Virus record (IMG/VR): IMGVR_UViG_2703719354_000009
Span: 1-45,557 of that record
Reading direction: 5' to 3' (one strand)
Source: a virus
Lineage: Duplodnaviria > Heunggongvirae > Uroviricota > Caudoviricetes
Length of the DNA: 45,557 nt
Part shown: positions 8,182 to 17,275 of the stretch, piece by piece
Numbering within the stretch: the stretch's first letter is position 1
Layout: each line of letters opens with the position of its first letter
Made by a program: the position numbers and the translations under genes
Notes under the pieces: generated by a model
The model's database searches: none
Seen by the model: the letters and a program-made list of their open reading frames with translations, nothing else
Told to the model about the DNA's origin: nothing

Positions 8182-8257
8182 GCCGATATAGCTCAGTTGG
8201 TAGAGCAGCGCATTCGTAATGCGAAGGTCGTAGGTTCGACTCCTATTATCGGCACCA
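8182..8257 (+). tRNA. thrW: tRNA-Thr, anticodon CGU
   Basis: 76-nt sequence GCCGATATAGCTCAGTTGGTAGAGCAGCGCATTCGTAATGCG...GGCACCA with cloverleaf arms, anticodon loop CATTCGTAATG and 3' CCA; lies just downstream of proA. Confidence 0.9.
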
Positions 8258-8271: not shown

Positions 8272-9435
8272 TTACACATCATTAGTACCTTCCTTATTTT
8301 TTGACTGGGACAAATTTGGGACCGATGGGTTCAGGATCGAGTCTATTTGCCGTGCGTGTTCGGTAAGGTGATTAGGTGCAAGGTGAGCATATCGACGAAC
8401 CATTTCGATAGACTCCCAGCCTCCCATTTCCTGTAACACTGACAACGGGACTCCGGCTTGAACCAGCCAACTTGCCCAGGTGTGTCTCAAGTCGTGAAAT
8501 CTGAAATCATCAATATCAGCCCGTCTCAGCGCCGCTTTCCAGGCTGTGTTTGCGTCATACCGCATCTTCCTTACTGTTGGCGCTTTCGTTCCGTCTGGTT
8601 TGGTACAGCTTTCCTTGTACACAAATACCCAACGGTGATGATTCCCGATTTGTTTTTTCAATACGCGACATGCAGTATCATTCAGCGCAACGCCAATTGC
8701 GCGGTTTGATTTACTCTCTTCCGGGTTTATCCATGCCACCCGGCGCTGCATATCTATTTGTTGCCATTCAAGGTTGATGATGTTCGAGCGCCTTAAACCT
8801 GTTGCCAGTGCAAATTCAACAACAGACTTTAATGGCTCCGGACATTCATCAATCAGCCTTTGTGCTTCATGGGGCTCCAGCCAGCGGATCCGTTTATTCT
8901 TTGGTTGAGGCACTTTAATAATTGGTGCCTTATCCAGCATTTTCCATTCACGCTCTGCGGCTCTTAGTAGGGCCTTTATAAATGAAAGATGCGTAGCCTT
9001 CGTTGCAACGGACGCTGGTTTTGGCGTGTATTCTGGAACAGGTTTCCCTTTTTTTCTGCATGCTTCTGCCCTGAGTCTCCAGTTTTCCTCATGACGCCGG
9101 TTCGTCATTTTCTGCATTGCTGAATAAATTTTTGATTCAGTAATGTCTCTTAGTTGCATTCCTGCGAAATGTTGAAGCCAGAATCCGATCCGGCTTTTGT
9201 CATCGTCCAGTGATTTTTTATGTGCTTTCTCTTCAAGCCACCTGACACACGCTTCCTCGAACGTTATATCAGGTATTTCACCAAGTTTGCTGACCCGCCA
9301 TGCTTCAGCCTTTAGCTTGTCATGGAGTTCTGTCGCCTGCCTTTTGTCCTTTGTTCCAAGAGACTGTTTAAATCTTTTACCGTTCGGCAATGTGAAACTG
9401 GCGTACCATATTTCACCTCTGCGGAAGAGTGACAT
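8272..9435 (-). CDS. int: Phage tyrosine integrase
   Basis: 387-aa ORF with N-terminus [34 protein letters not shown] and C-terminal catalytic region ...[39 protein letters not shown]; adjacent to attL. Confidence 0.9.
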
Positions 9436-11873: not shown

Positions 11874-12236
11874 TTAATGACCTGCTGCGCGGAGTTTTCC
11901 GTCAGGTTCACCGGCAAGAGTCAGTAATTGTCCCTGGTCTTCCTGCAGAATAGTCAGGCGACCACCGCGATTGACATACATCGGCGTTTCGGTGGTGTCT
12001 TCTTCGGAAATTTTCCCGCGGTTAGTCGGGCGAACATATGAGAGTTTGTGTTTGATTTTCACACGGTTCTCATCAAATGGTTCGATTTCCAGGTTGAGTG
12101 AGACCTTACCTTTGGTTTTCGTGTTCATCACACCGGAAGCGACTTCACTGAGAACTGCGCCGATTTTGGTTTCAAATACGCCGCCGTCCAGCTCCCCAAT
12201 AAATGCCTGCACATCAGTACTGCGTTCGCTAGCCAT
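11874..12236 (-). CDS. Hypothetical phage protein (YfdP-position)
   Basis: Start chosen at internal Met MASERSTDVQAF (121 aa); the 5' extension of the track ORF runs into a GC-rich structured region and looks non-coding. Confidence 0.5.
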   Translation of the reverse strand: MASERSTDVQAFIGELDGGVFETKIGAVLSEVASGVMNTKTKGKVSLNLEIEPFDENRVKIKHKLSYVRPTNRGKISEEDTTETPMYVNRGGRLTILQEDQGQLLTLAGEPDGKLRAAGH

Positions 12237-12284
12237 TTTTCTGCTCCTAATCATATCGACCCTGCAAGGTCGGTTGGTTTCTCC

Positions 12285-12373
12285 ACAAAACAGAGAAGAA
12301 CACCTGCGGTGGCAGCCGCCCGGATGGATTGGGTTATGAGCCCGTCGTCCGGTGATGTTCTTCTCTGTTTTGT
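12285..12373. repeat. Perfect 18-bp inverted repeat (ACAAAACAGAGAAGAACA / TGTTCTTCTCTGTTTTGT) separated by a 53-nt GC-rich loop
   Basis: Arms at 12285-12302 and 12356-12373 are exact reverse complements. A second 10-bp inverted repeat GCGGTACCAG/CTGGTACCGC lies at 12381-12419. Confidence 0.8.
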
Positions 12374-12674
12374 AAAAAGAGCGGTACCAGCCGGAAGCAA
12401 GTGTACAAACTGGTACCGCGAGGACTACACACAGCATAAAGTTGTGGTGCCGGGTGCCTCCCGGTGCCTGGCGAAAGTTGCACACCAGGCGGGTGGGTAT
12501 CCACAGAAGGTCGACTGTCAGCCTCAACCTTAACCCGCGTGCGCTGAGCCGCATTCACCACAACGCTAAGGATTCTCTCTGGTTGAAAATACTTAGCTGT
12601 TATGTGCCTGTCTTTTCACCACTTCAGGCTCGGTGGTATCTTGGTGTTTTCATATAGCCAAGAAGGAAATAGTT

Positions 12675-13278: not shown

Positions 13279-13953
13279 TTAGGCTTTGATTTTGTATCTT
13301 CTTGGTTTTCCTGAGAAAATCACTGTACCAATTATAGAGCAATTACCGTTGATCTTAATGTAAGGCTCAGGCCAGTTTGGGTTTAACGCTTTGAGATAAC
13401 GCTGTGTCCCATCTTCTATCAACCTTTTGAAGGTGGTTTCACCTGTATCGTGCATCAATGCAATAACGTCGTCACCGTGGCAGGCAGGTACTTCAGGATC
13501 GACAAAAATCATGTCTCCCGGGCGGTACTCATCAATCATTGAATCACCTATCACCCGCAAGATATAAGTCATTTCCCCACAGGGTACAGGGCAGGGATAC
13601 GTTTCTGCTGTGCTCAAATCAACCTCAGAATATCCAACTTCTTTCCATGCTCCGGCCTGTACCCATGATATGACAGGGACTAATGTGATTTGTTTATTAG
13701 TGATTGAAACATCAGGTTTTTTTGTGATGTTCGTTGTCTGGTGTTCTTGATCGAGCCATCCGACAGGCAGGTCGAAACATTTTTCGATGTGTCGTGCCAT
13801 GCTGTCACCGATATTTTTAGTAGCACCATCTCCCATAAACCTGCTGGTCTGGGTTGGCTCGCGATCAATCATAGTGGCAAAGGAAGAATTCCCGCCAACA
13901 CCATCTCTCAGTTTTCTGGCGTTAGACCGCCGGATGTCATGGATTGTTTTCAT
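13279..13953 (-). CDS. cI: CI-type phage repressor (HTH plus S24 LexA-like peptidase domain)
   Basis: 224 aa; C-terminal S24 signature ...VIGDSMIDEYRPGDMIFVD...FKRL...; divergent from a cro-like gene; no Shine-Dalgarno upstream of the ATG. Confidence 0.85.
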   Translation of the reverse strand: MKTIHDIRRSNARKLRDGVGGNSSFATMIDREPTQTSRFMGDGATKNIGDSMARHIEKCFDLPVGWLDQEHQTTNITKKPDVSITNKQITLVPVISWVQAGAWKEVGYSEVDLSTAETYPCPVPCGEMTYILRVIGDSMIDEYRPGDMIFVDPEVPACHGDDVIALMHDTGETTFKRLIEDGTQRYLKALNPNWPEPYIKINGNCSIIGTVIFSGKPRRYKIKA

Positions 13954-14275: not shown

Positions 14276-14845
14276 ATGAGGCTAATTGTGGGTAAGCATC
14301 ACTGGAAAATAGAAAAACAGCCTGAGTGGTACGTGAAAGCTGTCAGAAAAACTATCGCTGCGTTGCCGGGTGGTTACGCTGAAGCGGCTGACTGGCTCGA
14401 TGTAACAGAAAACGCTTTATTCAACCGCCTTCGTGCAGATGGCGATCAGATTTTCCCGCTGGGATGGGCAATGGTTTTACAGCGTGCTGGTGGCACTCAC
14501 TTCATTGCTGATGCTGTGGCGCAGTCTGCAAATGGCGTCTTTGTGTCTCTTCCTGACGTCGAGGATGTGGACAACGCCGATATTAACCAGCGTCTGCTGG
14601 AAGTCATTGAACAGATCGGCAGTTATTCAAAACAGATTCGTTCAGCAATCGAAGACGGTGTAGTGGAACCGCATGAGAAGACAGCAATTAACGACGAGCT
14701 GTATCTCTCAATTTCGAAGCTGCAGGAGCATGCAGCACTTGTCTACAAAATTTTTTGCATTTCAGAAAGTAATGACGCCCGCGAGTGTGCAGCTCCGGGC
14801 GTCGTGGCGTCGATTGCTTCTGGTTGTGGAGAAACTAACGCATGA
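14276..14845 (+). CDS. Putative cII-position regulator (YdaT-like)
   Basis: 189-aa ORF immediately after cro; family assignment from weak sequence recollection only. Confidence 0.4.
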
Positions 14846-15020
14846 ACAGTTTAACAACACACTACCGTCGCTCGCAACTGATTGCGCTTCCTGTTCCGGG
14901 TGGAAAAGCGAAGGTGGAATATTGCTATGCAGTGAATGTACCAGGTGACAGGGAAATTGTAACCCACAGCTTTGCAGAGTGGGCTGTGGGTGATTTCAAC
15001 CGGCAGAAGGAGACAGTCCT

Positions 15021-15200
15021 TTGCGACAAGTTAACCGCTGGTTCAAAGATCACTACGGAGTGCCCGTCAGAGTCATTCGTTGGGAGCCGGAAACACAACG
15101 TGTTATCTACCTCCGCGAAGGCTATGAGCATGAGTGCTTCAGCCCGCTCGAACAGTTTCGTCGTAAATTCAGGGAAATAGAGGTCGGTCATGAGCACTAA
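15021..15200 (+). CDS. Candidate small protein (59 aa) with TTG start
   Basis: Strong GAAGGAGA 7 nt upstream of TTG; frame reads ...[58 protein letters not shown]; stop overlaps the start of the replication gene. Competes with the 112-aa ATG ORF at 14842-15180. Confidence 0.3.
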
Positions 15201-16131
15201 ATTAACCGGCTATGTATGGGATGGTTGCGCTGCATCAGGCATGAAATTATCCAGCGTGGCAATTATGGCCCGCCTGGCTGATTTCAGTAATGACGAAGGT
15301 GTGTGCTGGCCATCAATTGAAACCATTGCCCGTCAGATTGGCGCGGGGATGAGTACCGTCAGAACGGCTATCGCACGGCTGGAAGCAGAAGGCTGGTTAA
15401 CGCGTAAGGCGCGTCGCCAGGGTAACCGCAATGCGTCGAATGTTTATCAGCTTAACGTTGCGAAGCTTCAGGCAGCGGCATTTTCTCAACTGTCAGATTC
15501 TGACCCGTCAAAATCTGACGCATCAAAATCTGACCCGTCAAAATTTGATGCGTCGAAATCAGGCAAAAAAGCGGGTTTTCACCCGTCAGAATCTGGCGGG
15601 GATCCGTCAGTAAAATCAAAACATGATCCGTCAGATAAAAAACCTTCTCGTCCGGACGCTTCGCAACCGGACACGCAGACGGCTGAACAGGATTTTTTAA
15701 CTCGCCATCCTGATGCGGTTGTATTCAGCCCTAAAAAGCGCCAGTGGGGGACGCAGGATGATTTGACCTGCGCACAGTGGCTCTGGAAAAAAATCATCGC
15801 CCTGTACGAGCAGGCTGCCGAATGTGACGGCGAGGTGGTTCGTCCCAAAGAACCGAACTGGACAGCCTGGGCAAACGAAATTCGCCTGATGTGTGTGCAG
15901 GATGGTCGTACTCACAAACAAATCTGCGAGATGTACAGCCGCGTCAGCCGCGATCCGTTCTGGTGCCGTAACGTGCTCAGCCCGTCGAAGCTGCGGGAAA
16001 AATGGGATGAGCTTTCCCTGCGCTTATCGCCGTCCGTCAGCACGTACACAGAAAAACGCGAAGACCCGTACTTCAAAGCCAGTTACGACAATGTGGACTA
16101 CAGCCAGATCCCGGCAGGATTCAGGGGGTGA
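15190..16131 (+). CDS. Replication initiation protein (N-terminal HTH, O-like) containing in-frame iterons
   Basis: 313 aa; N-terminal HTH-like region ...WPSIETIARQIGAGMSTVRTAIARLEAEGWL; central tandem repeats encode SDPSK-type pentapeptides; position after the cro/cII-like genes. Confidence 0.65.
   Translation: MSTKLTGYVWDGCAASGMKLSSVAIMARLADFSNDEGVCWPSIETIARQIGAGMSTVRTAIARLEAEGWLTRKARRQGNRNASNVYQLNVAKLQAAAFSQLSDSDPSKSDASKSDPSKFDASKSGKKAGFHPSESGGDPSVKSKHDPSDKKPSRPDASQPDTQTAEQDFLTRHPDAVVFSPKKRQWGTQDDLTCAQWLWKKIIALYEQAAECDGEVVRPKEPNWTAWANEIRLMCVQDGRTHKQICEMYSRVSRDPFWCRNVLSPSKLREKWDELSLRLSPSVSTYTEKREDPYFKASYDNVDYSQIPAGFRG
15499..15558. repeat. Four tandem 15-bp iterons (TCTGACCCGTCAAAA and variants), candidate replication origin
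   Basis: Exact 15-bp periodicity at 15499, 15514, 15529, 15544, followed by looser CCGTCAG repeats to ~15640 and an A-rich stretch. Confidence 0.5.
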
Positions 16132-16622
16132 GCATGAGTCTTTTGAATGACGTTCAGAAATTCATTGAAGCCCATCCGGGCTGTACTTCCGGAGACATTG
16201 CGGATGCTTTTGCAGGTTACTCACGGCAGCGCGTTCTGCAGTCAGCAAGCAAGTTACGTCAGAGTGGGCGTGTGGCTCACCGTTGTGAAGGAGATACACA
16301 CAGACATTTCCCGCGCCTGACTGAGAGAGCGCAGGATCCGGAACCACAACCAGTTCGTGAAACCAGACCTGTGCGCAATTTCTATGTCGGCACTAACGAT
16401 CCACGGGTGATTTTGTGCCTGACCCGCCAGGCTGAAGAACTGGAGTCCAGGGGCTTATACCGTCGTGCTGCAACCGTGTGGATGGCGGCATTCCGTGAAA
16501 GCCACTCCCAGTCAGAACGAAACAATTTTCTGGCGCGCCGTGAGCGGTGCTTACGGAAAAGCAGCAAGCGCGCTGCATCGGGTGAAGAGTGGTATCTGTC
16601 AGGGAATTACGTGGGGGCTTAA
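16128..16622 (+). CDS. Hypothetical phage protein, possible regulator
   Basis: 164-aa Arg-rich ORF; start codon overlaps the upstream stop (ATGA). Confidence 0.4.
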   Translation: MSMSLLNDVQKFIEAHPGCTSGDIADAFAGYSRQRVLQSASKLRQSGRVAHRCEGDTHRHFPRLTERAQDPEPQPVRETRPVRNFYVGTNDPRVILCLTRQAEELESRGLYRRAATVWMAAFRESHSQSERNNFLARRERCLRKSSKRAASGEEWYLSGNYVGA

Positions 16623-17275
16623 TGAGTAATAAATATTGCCAGGCGCTGGTGGAACTGCGGAACAAACCAGCCCATGAACTGAAGGAAGTGGGCGATCAGT
16701 GGCGCACGCCGGACAACATTTTCTGTGGAATTAACACCCTGTTTGGCCCGTTTGTTCTGGATCTGTTTACTGACGGTGATAACGCCAAATGTGCCGCGTA
16801 TTACACGGCGGAAGATAACGCGCTGGCGCATGACTGGTCAGAACGTCTTGCGGAGCTTAAAGGTGCTGCCTTTGGTAATCCCCCATACAGCCGCGCCAGT
16901 CAGCATGAGGGGCAATACATCACCGGCATGCGTTACATCATGAAACATGCCAGTGCCATGCGTGATAAGGGCGGGCGCTATGTTTTCCTGATCAAAGCTG
17001 CCACCAGCGAAGTGTGGTGGCCGGAAGATGCGGACCATATTGCTTTTATTCGCGGGCGTATTGGTTTTGAACTGCCTGCCTGGTTTATCCCGAAGGATGA
17101 GAAGCAGGTGCCGACAGGCGCTTTCTTCGCTGGTGCTATTGCTGTTTTCGACAAGACCTGGAAGGGACCGGCAATCAGCTACATCGGGCGCGATGAACTT
17201 GAGGCATGTGGTGAAGCCTTTCTGGTGCAGGTTCGCCAGCAGGCGGAAAAACTGGTCAGGGAGATGGCGGCATGA
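16622..17275 (+). CDS. Phage DNA N6-adenine methyltransferase (Dam-like)
   Basis: Start at MSNKYCQALV (overlapping TAATG); contains the catalytic GNPPY motif. Confidence 0.8.
   Translation: MSNKYCQALVELRNKPAHELKEVGDQWRTPDNIFCGINTLFGPFVLDLFTDGDNAKCAAYYTAEDNALAHDWSERLAELKGAAFGNPPYSRASQHEGQYITGMRYIMKHASAMRDKGGRYVFLIKAATSEVWWPEDADHIAFIRGRIGFELPAWFIPKDEKQVPTGAFFAGAIAVFDKTWKGPAISYIGRDELEACGEAFLVQVRQQAEKLVREMAA

What the first reader, a model, noticed from the sequence alone, without database searches (positions are those of the whole stretch)
15499..15640. Tandem 15-bp iterons embedded in-frame in the replication initiator gene: likely phage origin
Four consecutive 15-bp units (TCTGACCCGTCAAAA, TCTGACGCATCAAAA, TCTGACCCGTCAAAA, TTTGATGCGTCGAAA) are followed by three looser CCGTCAG copies and an A-rich tract. 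They sit inside the O-like replication gene, where they encode an SDPSK-type repeat. Lambda ori iterons lie inside gene O in the same way, bound by O protein itself.
Basis: partly seen in the sequence, partly recalled or inferred. Interest (0 to 1): 0.45.

Follow-up and report, generated by a model that had tools for sequence, protein, structure and literature searches.

The report
Phage replication origin inside initiator gene
The tandem 15-bp repeats are almost certainly the binding sites (iterons) of a prophage replication origin embedded in the gene of the initiator protein that binds them, the same layout as phage lambda's origin, so this is a well-supported but ordinary kind of feature.

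Summary
Four 15-bp tandem units lie at 15499-15558, followed by three CCGTCAG copies and an A-rich tract, all in frame in a 313-aa replication initiator (15190-16131) of an SfII/SfIV-type lambdoid prophage. (1) Synonymous codons in the repeat are frozen across about 70 Enterobacterales species, while the N-terminal domain of the same genes drifts freely. (2) Genes sharing a 99-100% identical C-terminal domain but a different N-terminal winged-helix domain carry a different private repeat family at the same spot (three types seen). (3) A recognition-helix variant (R58I) carries repeats changed symmetrically in both half-sites. (4) The C-terminal domain is truly homologous to lambda O (E=7e-26), and the repeats sit where ori-lambda sits. 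The repeats encode a predicted disordered linker. The functional element runs from about 15490 to 15643: a copy-number-variable array, an ultra-conserved 62-bp block with a near-perfect palindrome and two invariant GATC sites, and the gene's least stable AT-rich stretch. Binding and origin activity are inferred, not shown. The N-terminal domain is not lambda-O family. No helicase loader is encoded; instead the initiator ends in the invariant C-terminal tail of host DnaT, which is the most novel lead.

The parts
15190..16131 (+). Replication initiator gene (313 aa) in the 'O' slot of the lambdoid early-right operon, after cII-like (14276-14845) and a small ORF (14842-15180).
   Evidence: ORF list. 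Pfam HTH_36 at aa 23-70. PHROG 391 'replication initiation O-like', E=7.9e-136. 99.5% identical to SfII gene 41, 'O protein family'.
15190..15486 (+). Coding region of the N-terminal winged-helix DNA-binding domain (aa 1-99): recognition helix aa 54-67, beta-wing aa 70-88.
   Evidence: AlphaFold2 model with pLDDT about 80-89 over aa 11-70. Foldseek gives MarR-type wHTH folds. No homology to lambda O's N-terminus.
15490..15564 (.). Tandem iteron array: five 15-bp-period units, each a 13-bp (near-)palindrome GTCARA-W-TYTGAC (15492, 15507, 15522, 15537, 15552). The first is a perfect palindrome. Copy number is variable.
   Evidence: Copy number is 3-9 across species and 2-6 within E. coli-type phages. 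Frozen codons: TCT 85%, TCA 86%, AAA 99.6%.
15574..15635 (.). Ultra-conserved 62-bp origin core (GGTTTTsACCCGTCAGAATCTGGCGGGGATCCGTCAGTAAAwTCAAAACAAGATCCrTCAG).
   Evidence: Top-codon fraction is 0.93, against 0.53 in the N-terminal domain, across 67 species.
15583..15599 (.). Best-conserved dyad site CCGTCAGA-A-TCTGGCGG (7 of 8 symmetric). It carries the universal core YCAGA-W-TCTGR.
   Evidence: The equivalent site is a perfect palindrome in Trabulsiella, Cronobacter and Proteus relatives and is duplicated in Proteus.
15601..15610 (.). GATC-CGTCAG half-site. The GATC is invariant.
   Evidence: GATC present in 66 of 66 species. The pattern GATCCRTCAG occurs only twice in the window, both here.
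15625..15634 (.). Second GATC-CGTCAG half-site.
   Evidence: GATC present in 58 of 66 species.
15609..15643 (.). A/T-rich, least stable stretch of the gene: candidate DNA-unwinding element, overlapping the last two half-sites.
   Evidence: The 30-mer at 15611-15640 has dG -34.1, against a regional mean of -41.6 (sd 3.3). The cross-species AT maximum (72%) is in bin 15613-15642.
15632..15668 (.). Mosaic junction zone: the boundary between the N-terminal-domain+iteron module and the exchangeable C-terminal modules.
   Evidence: phiNP similarity ends at gene nt 479 and mEp460_4F5 similarity starts at nt 443. Third-position conservation collapses after about 15640.
15703..16020 (+). Coding region of the lambda-O-type C-terminal domain (aa ~172-277).
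   Evidence: BLASTP against lambda O gives E=7e-26. DNA local alignment of 15845-16005 against O nt 635-795 scores 60, against a maximum of 35 in 300 codon shuffles.
16102..16128 (+). C-terminal tail SQIPAGFRG, matching the invariant C-terminus of host DnaT (SQIPPGFRG).
   Evidence: Tail type partitions with the absence of a phage helicase loader.
16589..17275 (+). Phage Dam methylase gene in the same module. It may act on the two conserved origin GATC sites (association only).
   Evidence: Pfam Dam, E=5.8e-45. A Dam homologue lies downstream in 29 of 69 loci and is directly adjacent in 21.

Best explanation
Window 15490-15643 is the replication origin of this SfII/SfIV-type lambdoid prophage, embedded in frame in its own initiator gene. 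The initiator's N-terminal winged-helix domain, probably as dimers, binds the dyad-symmetric sites (core YCAGA-W-TCTGR). These comprise a copy-number-variable tandem array of 15-bp units, a near-perfect palindrome, and two GATC-linked half-sites in a fixed 62-bp core. The resulting nucleoprotein complex destabilises the adjacent A/T-rich stretch (about 15609-15643), where the host replicative helicase is loaded. The peptide encoded by the origin is simply the disordered linker between the DNA-binding domain and a lambda-O-type C-terminal domain. Because no phage helicase loader is encoded, helicase recruitment is proposed to run through the C-terminal domain and tail, which copies the invariant C-terminal tail of the host primosomal protein DnaT. 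Shown here: the repeats, their DNA-level conservation, their co-variation with the DNA-binding domain, the homology to lambda O's C-terminal domain, the positional equivalence to ori-lambda, and the AT-rich minimum. Inferred: binding, dimer stoichiometry, unwinding site, origin firing, and the route of helicase recruitment.
For: (1) DNA-level constraint. In 324 units from 71 genes, Ser at position 1 is TCT in 211 of 247 cases, against 61 of 668 for Ser codons in the N-terminal domain of the same genes. Ser at position 4 is TCA in 279 of 324 against 79 of 668, and Lys is AAA in 239 of 240 against 217 of 363. The mean top-codon fraction is 0.93 in the block after the array and 0.53 in the N-terminal domain, with sharp limits at about 15574-15635. 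In Providencia the peptide changes from SDxSK to SVxSK while the DNA keeps TCAAAATCTG. (2) Specificity co-variation. Among 80 phage contigs with a 99-100% identical C-terminal domain, 75 have this N-terminus with these repeats and 4 have the mEp460-type N-terminus with GGTCAAARTG repeats; none are mixed (also 14-16, 54). SfV carries a third N-terminal type with a third dyad repeat, GTGCA-N5-TKCAC, five copies, at the same place. Trabulsiella and Cronobacter relatives with R58I in the predicted recognition helix have both half-sites changed symmetrically (TGAC-CC-GTCA to TGAA-CG-TTCA). (3) Lambda-like anatomy. The gene is in the O slot, and a P-family, DnaC-like or DnaB gene follows it in some relatives. 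The C-terminal domain is homologous to lambda O (E=7e-26), and the repeats align opposite the ori-lambda-encoded segment. The mosaic junction lies just 3' of the repeats, as do lambda's annotated hybrid junctions. Variable iteron number that adds residues to the initiator matches the lambda versus Stx phage case (PMC7466680). (4) The least stable and most AT-rich part of the gene abuts the sites and is conserved across species. (5) The sites occur nowhere else in the window, including the cI/cro promoter region. (6) The repeat-encoded residues 100-157 are predicted to be disordered (pLDDT 45-56), so little protein-level constraint is expected. MarR-type winged helices bind palindromes as dimers (family knowledge).
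Against: There is no experimental evidence of binding or origin activity for this initiator type, and I found none in the searchable literature; the SfV genome paper could not be read. The AT-rich stretch is short and modest (about 35 bp, about 70% AT) compared with lambda's and is interrupted by a half-site. The 15-bp back-to-back spacing differs from the 20-24-bp spacing in lambda, SfV-type and mEp460-type arrays, and the binding register (13-mer or 10-mer palindrome) cannot be decided from sequence. In the R58I relatives the fixed-core half-sites keep GTCA while the tandem units change, so the core may be read differently or by another factor. The R58I co-variation may reflect a single evolutionary event. 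Extreme conservation of the 62-bp core could in part reflect recombinational spread rather than selection alone.
Confidence: 0.8

Rival explanations
1. The sites are bound by the initiator but serve regulation rather than initiation. Examples would be autoregulation by a transcriptional roadblock inside its own gene, or titration or handcuffing of initiator as with plasmid iterons. The true origin would lie elsewhere.
For: Co-variation and DNA-level conservation prove only a specific protein-DNA relationship, not origin firing. Variable copy number suits a titration role. Plasmid iterons are known to have such dual roles (family knowledge).
Against: The positional equivalence to ori-lambda within a homologous C-terminal-domain gene. 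A conserved AT-rich low-stability stretch lies directly beside the sites. No second cluster of sites exists anywhere in the window that could be the 'real' origin. There are no sites at the promoters.
Confidence: 0.08
2. The repeat is only a low-complexity, slippage-prone peptide linker (SDxSK repeats) selected at the protein level, with no DNA function.
For: It encodes a predicted disordered Ser/Asp/Lys-rich linker. Copy number varies as expected for slippage.
Against: Synonymous sites are frozen, whereas a disordered linker should be the least constrained part of the gene. The radical peptide change Asp to Val occurs with the DNA preserved. A frameshifted gene call still shows the repeat (P0084). 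Unrelated N-terminal types have unrelated repeats with dyad symmetry at the same spot, encoding quite different peptides.
Confidence: 0.03
3. The conserved sequence acts as a single-stranded nucleic-acid structure. This could be an mRNA element affecting translation or stability of the initiator, or a DNA hairpin such as a primosome-assembly-site-like structure exposed after unwinding.
For: The segment 15485-15645 folds far better than shuffles (RNA -52 kcal/mol, z=-6.1; DNA z=-5.5). Frozen synonymous sites would also fit an RNA element. The DnaT-like tail hints at primosome involvement.
Against: Strong folding is an automatic consequence of an array of palindromic units. There is no Rfam family. 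The structure cannot be register-conserved when the unit number varies from 3 to 9. An RNA element does not explain why the repeat sequence switches with the DNA-binding-domain type, or why half-sites change symmetrically with a recognition-helix substitution.
Confidence: 0.05
4. The 62-bp core is conserved mainly as a recombination 'linker' at a module boundary, or is a binding site for a host factor, rather than as initiator sites.
For: The mosaic junction lies right at its 3' edge. The core keeps GTCA half-sites even where the tandem units have changed specificity. Two invariant GATC sites suggest Dam or SeqA involvement.
Against: The core contains the best palindromic copy of the same motif as the array. 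In Proteus that site is itself duplicated, like an iteron. There are no DnaA boxes or IHF consensus in 15480-15650. Selection for recombination alone is unlikely to freeze 60 bp across an order.
Confidence: 0.04

Closest known systems
ori-lambda inside gene O of phage lambda and Stx phages (O-some origin)
   Same: The origin is embedded in frame in the middle of the initiator gene, between the DNA-binding-domain and C-terminal-domain coding regions. It has multiple dyad-symmetric A-tract-containing sites followed by an A-rich low-stability tract. Site number varies between relatives and adds residues to the protein. The module junction lies just 3' of the origin. The C-terminal domain is homologous (E=7e-26).
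   Different: The N-terminal DNA-binding domain is HTH_36-type and is not detectably homologous to Pfam Phage_rep_O. The sites are unrelated in sequence. The array is back to back with a 15-bp period, where lambda has 18-bp sites at 20-24-bp spacing. The AT-rich tract is shorter. There is no P gene, and the C-terminal tail is DnaT-like where lambda O ends TDWIYGVDL.
Initiators of SfV (orf39) and mEp460-type phages: sister modules in the same lambdoid gene pool
   Same: The same gene slot, the same downstream genes (PerC-like, Dam, LexA-DBD, RusA), the same IPAGFRG tail, and a private dyad-repeat family immediately after the wHTH coding region.
   Different: They have different N-terminal domains and different repeats (GTCAAARTG-type at 23-24 bp; GTGCA-N5-TKCAC at 21-24 bp). 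SfV also has a different middle domain.
Iteron-type plasmid origins (winged-helix Rep proteins such as those of pPS10, F, R6K, RK2)
   Same: A winged-helix initiator binds directly repeated sites next to an AT-rich unwinding element. GATC sites in or near the origin occur in some of them, for example P1 oriR (family knowledge, not tested here).
   Different: Plasmid iterons are normally intergenic, non-palindromic, about 17-22 bp long and bound by Rep monomers. Here the sites are coding, dyad-symmetric and tightly packed. No sequence or fold match to plasmid Rep proteins was found.
E. coli DnaT (primosomal protein I)
   Same: The last 9 residues match 8 of 9 (SQIPAGFRG against SQIPPGFRG). Some relatives match about 14 of 20 residues of the invariant DnaT tail RD(I/V)N..SEPD..IPPGFRG.
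   Different: No similarity outside the tail. The Pfam DnaT domain is not detected. The 'primosomal protein' annotations in databases appear to rest on this tail or on transfer between records.

Membership tests
Lambda-type origin embedded in an O-type initiator gene | Multiple repeated initiator-binding sites located inside the initiator's own coding sequence, between the regions coding for the DNA-binding domain and the C-terminal domain | tested here: met
   The array and core at 15490-15635 lie between the wHTH coding region (to 15486) and the O-like C-terminal domain (from about 15703).
Lambda-type origin embedded in an O-type initiator gene | Each site has internal dyad symmetry with a central A-tract | tested here: met
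   GTCARA-W-TYTGAC 13-mers, one of them perfect (15492-15504); CCGTCAGA-A-TCTGGCGG at 15583-15599.
Lambda-type origin embedded in an O-type initiator gene | Site sequence is specific to, and exchanges together with, the initiator's N-terminal domain | tested here: met
   75 versus 4 contigs with no mixed cases; phiNP, mEp460_4F5 and SfV; symmetric half-site change with R58I.
Lambda-type origin embedded in an O-type initiator gene | AT-rich unwinding tract directly 3' of the sites | tested here: inconclusive
   The least stable 30-mer of the gene and the cross-species AT maximum (72%) are at 15611-15642. The tract is only about 35 bp and overlaps a half-site. Unwinding was not tested.
Lambda-type origin embedded in an O-type initiator gene | Specific binding by the initiator, and origin activity in cis | not testable with these tools
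   Requires EMSA or footprinting and a replication assay.
Lambda O protein family (Pfam PF04492 Phage_rep_O, N-terminal DNA-binding domain) | N-terminal domain matches the Phage_rep_O profile | tested here: not met
   Lambda O hits PF04492 at 5.7e-36, while the window protein has no hit at E<0.01 and instead matches HTH_36 at 4.3e-11. hhalign of the N-terminal profile against lambda O gives probability 0.4%.
Lambda O protein family (C-terminal domain) | C-terminal domain homologous to lambda O residues about 178-270 | tested here: met
   BLASTP E=7e-26; DNA alignment beyond all 300 shuffles.
Lambda O-P replication module | A cognate helicase loader (P) encoded immediately downstream | tested here: not met
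   The downstream genes are PerC-like, Dam, LexA-DBD and RusA. None of the 44 loci with this tail type has a loader within 3 kb. Relatives with other tails do have a P-like or DnaC-like gene.
DnaT / primosomal protein I (as annotated in several phage records) | DnaT fold (Pfam PF17948 DnaT DNA-binding domain) over most of the protein | tested here: not met
   No PF17948 hit. BLASTP against E. coli DnaT aligns only the last 9 residues. All DnaT orthologues carry PF17948.
Iteron plasmid Rep family | Rep_3/RepA-type tandem winged-helix initiator | tested here: not met
   No such Pfam, NCBIfam, PDB or fold match; only generic MarR-type wHTH matches.

The most novel reading that the evidence does not exclude
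This initiator belongs to a widespread class of loader-less lambdoid replication modules in which the phage protein carries a copy of the invariant C-terminal tail of the host restart protein DnaT (RD(I/V)N..S.PD..IPxGFRG). The tail would let the origin-bound initiator plug directly into the host primosome machinery (PriA/PriB or DnaB-DnaC), replacing a phage-encoded P, DnaC or DnaB. Tail type would then be a modular 'adaptor' that decides how the helicase is recruited. The phage data would also point to a function for a DnaT tail that the 2026 preprimosome paper's text does not explain.
Probability: 0.35. Interest if true: 0.7.

Novelty: new member of a known kind. Interest (0 to 1): 0.35.

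Why it matters
The finding pins down the likely replication origin and its specificity determinants for the SfII/SfIV/SfV-type serotype-converting and related lambdoid prophages, which are very common in E. coli, Shigella and other Enterobacterales and whose databases annotate no origin. That is useful for prophage annotation, for predicting replication incompatibility or cross-activation between co-resident prophages, and for building phage-derived replicons. It also gives a clean worked example of overlapping protein and DNA codes: a disordered linker whose codons are fixed by DNA-binding requirements. The architecture itself is textbook, so the main finding is confirmatory. The DnaT-tail observation, if it holds, would bear on an open question, namely how DnaB-DnaC is recruited in replication restart.

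Tried and rejected
(1) I suspected that the frozen core was homologous to the palindrome right of lambda's AT-rich tract (TCGTCAGAGAATTCTGGCG). Local alignment gave only a 12-mer match, at chance level, so I dropped the idea; the same run revealed the real C-terminal-domain homology. (2) Promoter and terminator scan: no sigma-70-like promoter, and terminator-like hits at chance level. The minus-strand hairpin at 15572-15585 is not conserved in the cross-species consensus. (3) Rfam: nothing at the site. (4) The single-strand folding z-scores are strong but follow automatically from palindromic repeats, so they were not used as evidence. (5) DnaA boxes and IHF consensus: none in 15480-15650. (6) GATC is not enriched overall in the region; only the two core sites stand out. 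(7) phmmer against the PDB and Foldseek of the N-terminal model gave only generic MarR-type winged helices. (8) NCBIfam gave no informative model. (9) Literature: no paper prints the repeat sequence, the SfIV paper is silent on the origin, and the SfV genome paper and the Weigel and Seitz review are not held. (10) The upstream CCGTCAG copies at 15330 and 15356 were considered as extra sites, but their codons are not conserved in other species. (11) The E. coli variant lacking the tandem units was considered as a refuter. I rejected it because the same deletion removes wing strand beta-2 and helix 90-99 of the DNA-binding domain.
Full report
WHAT IS THERE. The window is a prophage of the SfII/SfIV/Kati type. 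The 942-nt gene that holds the finding is 99.2-99.8% identical to genes of those phages, which annotate it variously as 'O protein family', 'replication protein' or 'primosomal protein'. The first ~8 kb of the window are host DNA ending at a tRNA-Thr. The finding lies in ORF 15190-16131 (+), 313 aa. This ORF follows cI-like (13279-13953, minus strand), cII-like (14276-14845) and a small ORF, and precedes a PerC-like gene, a Dam methylase, a LexA-DBD protein and RusA. Read from 15492, the array is five 13-bp near-palindromes GTCARA-W-TYTGAC separated by 2 bp, with a sixth copy at 15585. Five of the six matches to this 13-mer in the whole 45.6-kb window are here, and none is near the early promoters.

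IS THE DNA, NOT JUST THE PEPTIDE, UNDER SELECTION? A scan of one genome per species returned 77 loci across Enterobacterales that encode the same N-terminal domain at 48-100% identity, from Escherichia to Proteus, Providencia and Gilliamella. All intact genes have the repeat at the same place. In 324 repeat units from 71 genes:
- Ser at unit position 1 is TCT in 211 of 247 cases, whereas TCT makes up 61 of 668 Ser codons in the N-terminal domain of the same genes.
- Ser at unit position 4 is TCA in 279 of 324 cases, against 79 of 668.
- Lys is AAA in 239 of 240 cases, against 217 of 363.
- Asp is GAC in 202 of 250 cases, against 135 of 255.
In 62 conserved-residue columns of the N-terminal domain, the commonest synonymous codon accounts for 53% of sequences on average. 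In the block that follows the array (F-D/H-P-S-E-S-G-G-D-P-S-V-x-S-K-x-D-P-S) it accounts for 93%, and most columns are at 100%. An anchored nucleotide stack delimits this frozen block to window 15574-15635, and third-position conservation falls to 0.4-0.5 immediately after about 15640. In Providencia the peptide unit changes from SDxSK to SVxSK (Asp to Val), yet the DNA keeps TCA-AAA-TCT-G. An AlphaFold2 model places a winged helix in residues 1-99 (recognition helix 54-67, wing 70-88) and leaves residues 100-157, the repeat-encoded part, without secondary structure at pLDDT 45-56. A disordered linker should be the least constrained part of the protein, yet its codons are the most constrained in the gene.

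DOES THE REPEAT MATCH THE DNA-BINDING DOMAIN? Nature has run the swap experiment.
- Citrobacter phage phiNP shares the N-terminal domain and repeats (82% nt identity) but has a different C-terminal half. mEp460_4F5 shares the C-terminal half from gene nt 443 but has an unrelated N-terminus and, at the same position, an unrelated repeat (CATCGGGTCAAARTG-type, 4-5 copies, 23-24-bp spacing).
- Among 80 IMG/VR contigs whose C-terminal domain is 99-100% identical to the window's, 75 have the window's N-terminus with TCTGAC...GTCAAAA repeats and 4 have the mEp460-type N-terminus with its own repeats. There are no mixed combinations.
- SfV orf39 has a third HTH_36-type N-terminus and a third dyad-symmetric repeat (GTGCA-N5-TKCAC, five copies, 21-24-bp spacing) in the same place.
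- Within the window's own family, Trabulsiella and Cronobacter relatives have Ile in place of the otherwise invariant Arg58 of the predicted recognition helix, plus changes in the wing. Their units have changed symmetrically on both arms, from TGAC-CC-GTCA to TGAA-CG-TTCA and TTCAGA-A-TCTGRA.
Symmetric change of both half-sites together with a recognition-helix substitution is what dimeric protein recognition predicts. This may, however, be a single evolutionary event.

IS THE GENE REALLY O-LIKE? Partly, and in an informative way. Pfam's Phage_rep_O model, which covers only lambda O's N-terminal domain, hits lambda O (5.7e-36) but not this protein, which matches HTH_36 instead. A profile comparison of the N-terminal domain with lambda O gives a probability of 0.4%. 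The rest of the protein, however, is homologous to lambda O. BLASTP aligns aa 70-277 with O aa 78-270 at E=7e-26, most strongly over WAN(E/D)IRLM...FW..NVLSP.KLR.KW. The DNA alignment of 15845-16005 with O nt 635-795 scores 60, against a maximum of 35 in 300 codon shuffles. In that alignment the repeat-encoded residues lie opposite the residues of O that ori-lambda encodes; the annotated iterons are at O codons ~117-145, followed by the A-rich tract. Lambda's annotated hybrid junctions lie just right of its origin, as the mosaic junction does here. In relatives, the same N-terminal/repeat module lies directly upstream of a lambda-P-family loader (Lonsdalea, E=7e-62), an IstB/DnaC-like ATPase (Serratia), or DnaC-like plus DnaB genes (Proteus). 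The gene is therefore the initiator of a lambdoid replication module that has exchanged its DNA-binding domain and, with it, its iterons.

ANATOMY OF THE ORIGIN. The parts are:
(i) A tandem array at 15490-15564 whose unit number varies: 3-9 across species, and 2-6 (mostly 4) among E. coli-type phages. This recalls the four versus six iterons of lambda and Stx phages (PMC7466680).
(ii) The fixed core at 15574-15635. It holds the best copy of the universal motif YCAGA-W-TCTGR (CCGTCAGA-A-TCTGGCGG, 15583-15599). This site is a perfect palindrome in three diverged relatives and is duplicated in Proteus, where tandem units are few.
(iii) Two GATC-CGTCAG half-sites (15601, 15625) at 21- and 24-bp spacing. 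Their GATC is present in 66 of 66 and 58 of 66 species.
(iv) The least stable 30-mer of the gene, 15611-15640 (dG -34.1, against a regional mean of -41.6, sd 3.3). It coincides with the cross-species AT maximum of 72%.

MECHANISM (inferred). Initiator dimers occupy the dyad sites. The complex distorts the DNA and opens the adjacent A/T-rich stretch, and the host helicase is loaded there. The register of binding (13-mer or 10-mer palindrome), the role of the weaker tandem units (extra affinity or local concentration, as proposed for the extra Stx iterons), and the role of Dam methylation are open.

RIVALS. A pure peptide-linker explanation is contradicted by the codon data. A regulatory-only role for the sites cannot be excluded without experiments, but it is disfavoured by the lambda-equivalent position, the adjacent AT-rich minimum, and the absence of any other site cluster in the window. 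An RNA or single-strand structure would explain frozen codons and the strong folding (z about -6), but not the co-variation with the DNA-binding domain or the variable unit number. Host-factor sites (DnaA, IHF) are absent.

No intact homologue lacks the repeats. One E. coli chromosomal variant (P0164, locus L166) has lost all tandem units through a 10-bp microhomology (ATGCGTCGAA, window 15431 and 15547). The same deletion removes residues 84-123, including wing strand beta-2 and helix 90-99, so it is most likely a dead initiator in a resident prophage.

SIDE FINDING: HELICASE RECRUITMENT. The C-terminal part is itself modular. There are two unrelated middle domains (lambda-O-type, or Pfam Phg_2220_C) and at least three tail types, in all combinations. 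The window's tail...YSQIPAGFRG, matches the last nine residues of E. coli DnaT at 8 of 9 positions. Some relatives match about 14 of 20 residues of the tail: RERDINAISQPNDTIPPGFRG against DnaT KRDINAISQPDSQIPPGFRG. In DnaT, residues R161, D162, S167, D170, I173, P174, G176, F177, R178 and G179 are invariant across 16 genera. Tail type partitions perfectly with gene content. All 44 loci with the DnaT-like tail and all 21 with a long alternative tail lack any P-, DnaC- or DnaB-like gene within 3 kb, whereas all 4 loci with other tails have one, as does Proteus. The 2026 preprimosome structure paper states that how DnaT recruits DnaB/DnaC is unknown and reports docking of the DnaT C-terminal domain on PriA. 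Its text does not say what the extreme tail does (PMC13377028). A reasonable but untested reading is that the phage initiator mimics DnaT's tail to engage host primosome components in place of a phage loader.

NOVELTY AND VERDICT. The architecture is the classical lambdoid one, so a specialist would not be surprised. I found no description of this particular origin or its repeats in the searchable literature or in the phage records, although two likely sources could not be read. It is best classed as a new, computationally well-supported member of a known kind. Confidence that these are initiator-binding iterons of the phage origin is about 0.8. Interest is modest (0.35), and the DnaT-tail lead is the part worth pursuing.

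Noticed in passing
window 16102-16128 (last 9 codons of the initiator); loci L005-L080: The initiator ends in SQIPAGFRG, 8 of 9 identical to the invariant C-terminus of host DnaT. Across 69 related loci, this tail (44 loci) and a long alternative tail (21 loci) never co-occur with a phage helicase loader, while all 4 loci with other tails have a P-like or DnaC-like gene next door.
   Followed up: partly
window 15703-16020: The C-terminal domain is homologous to the C-terminal domain of lambda O (E=7e-26). Pfam has no model for this domain, so standard annotation misses the relationship.
   Followed up: yes
window 15601-15604 and 15625-15628; Dam gene 16589-17275: Two GATC sites inside the origin core are conserved in 66 of 66 and 58 of 66 species, each directly preceding a CGTCAG half-site. 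The phage encodes its own Dam methylase two genes downstream, and a Dam gene is adjacent to the initiator in 21 of 69 related loci. This suggests methylation control of the origin.
   Followed up: partly
L166 6001-6825 (E. coli chromosome AP027619.1); window 15431-15440 and 15547-15556: A natural deletion variant of the initiator (274 aa) has lost aa 84-123, including all tandem units, apparently by recombination between two ATGCGTCGAA copies. It keeps the 62-bp core.
   Followed up: partly
L070, L078 (E. coli chromosomes); proteins P0094-P0106: Many E. coli genomes carry a 138-aa fusion of the first ~79 residues of this initiator to a RusA domain (Pfam HTH_36 + RusA). These are presumably deletion remnants of this replication module in cryptic prophages that have lost the origin.
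   Followed up: no
L162 2020-2170 (SfV orf39) and L003 2835-2970 (mEp460_4F5): Two other initiator types in the same gene slot carry their own dyad repeats: GTGCA-N5-TKCAC x5 plus GAACCAGTCA x3 in SfV, and CATCGGGTCAAARTG x4-5 in mEp460_4F5. These are likely the unannotated origins of those phages.
   Followed up: partly
loci L018, L027, L033, L042, L044, L060-L069 (3' ends of the initiator genes): An alternative ~60-aa C-terminal extension (ERDAAYRRFI...PSELE...WNxIWKE...) replaces the DnaT-like tail in 21 loci. It has no Pfam match and also goes with the absence of a loader gene.
   Followed up: no
window 8182-8257 and 8272-9435: tRNA-Thr (anticodon CGT) is immediately followed by a 387-aa minus-strand ORF. 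Together with the host-like ORFs in 1-8 kb, this looks like the prophage attachment site. The ORF was not checked for integrase domains.
   Followed up: no
window 12372-12594 (-): An Rfam hit to the sRNA family STnc100 (48.5 bits, gathering score 47), overlapping the 5' part of minus-strand ORF 11874-12554 in the early-left region.
   Followed up: no
window 43592-43620: A perfect two-copy tandem of a 14-bp unit (TTCTGCACTGGCTA), the highest-scoring tandem repeat in the window after the iteron array.
   Followed up: no
window 16128-16622: The gene directly after the initiator, in the slot where lambda has P, encodes a 164-aa protein with a C-terminal PerC/ANR-type domain. It is conserved in this position in 18 of 69 related loci, and its role in a replication module is unclear.
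   Followed up: no
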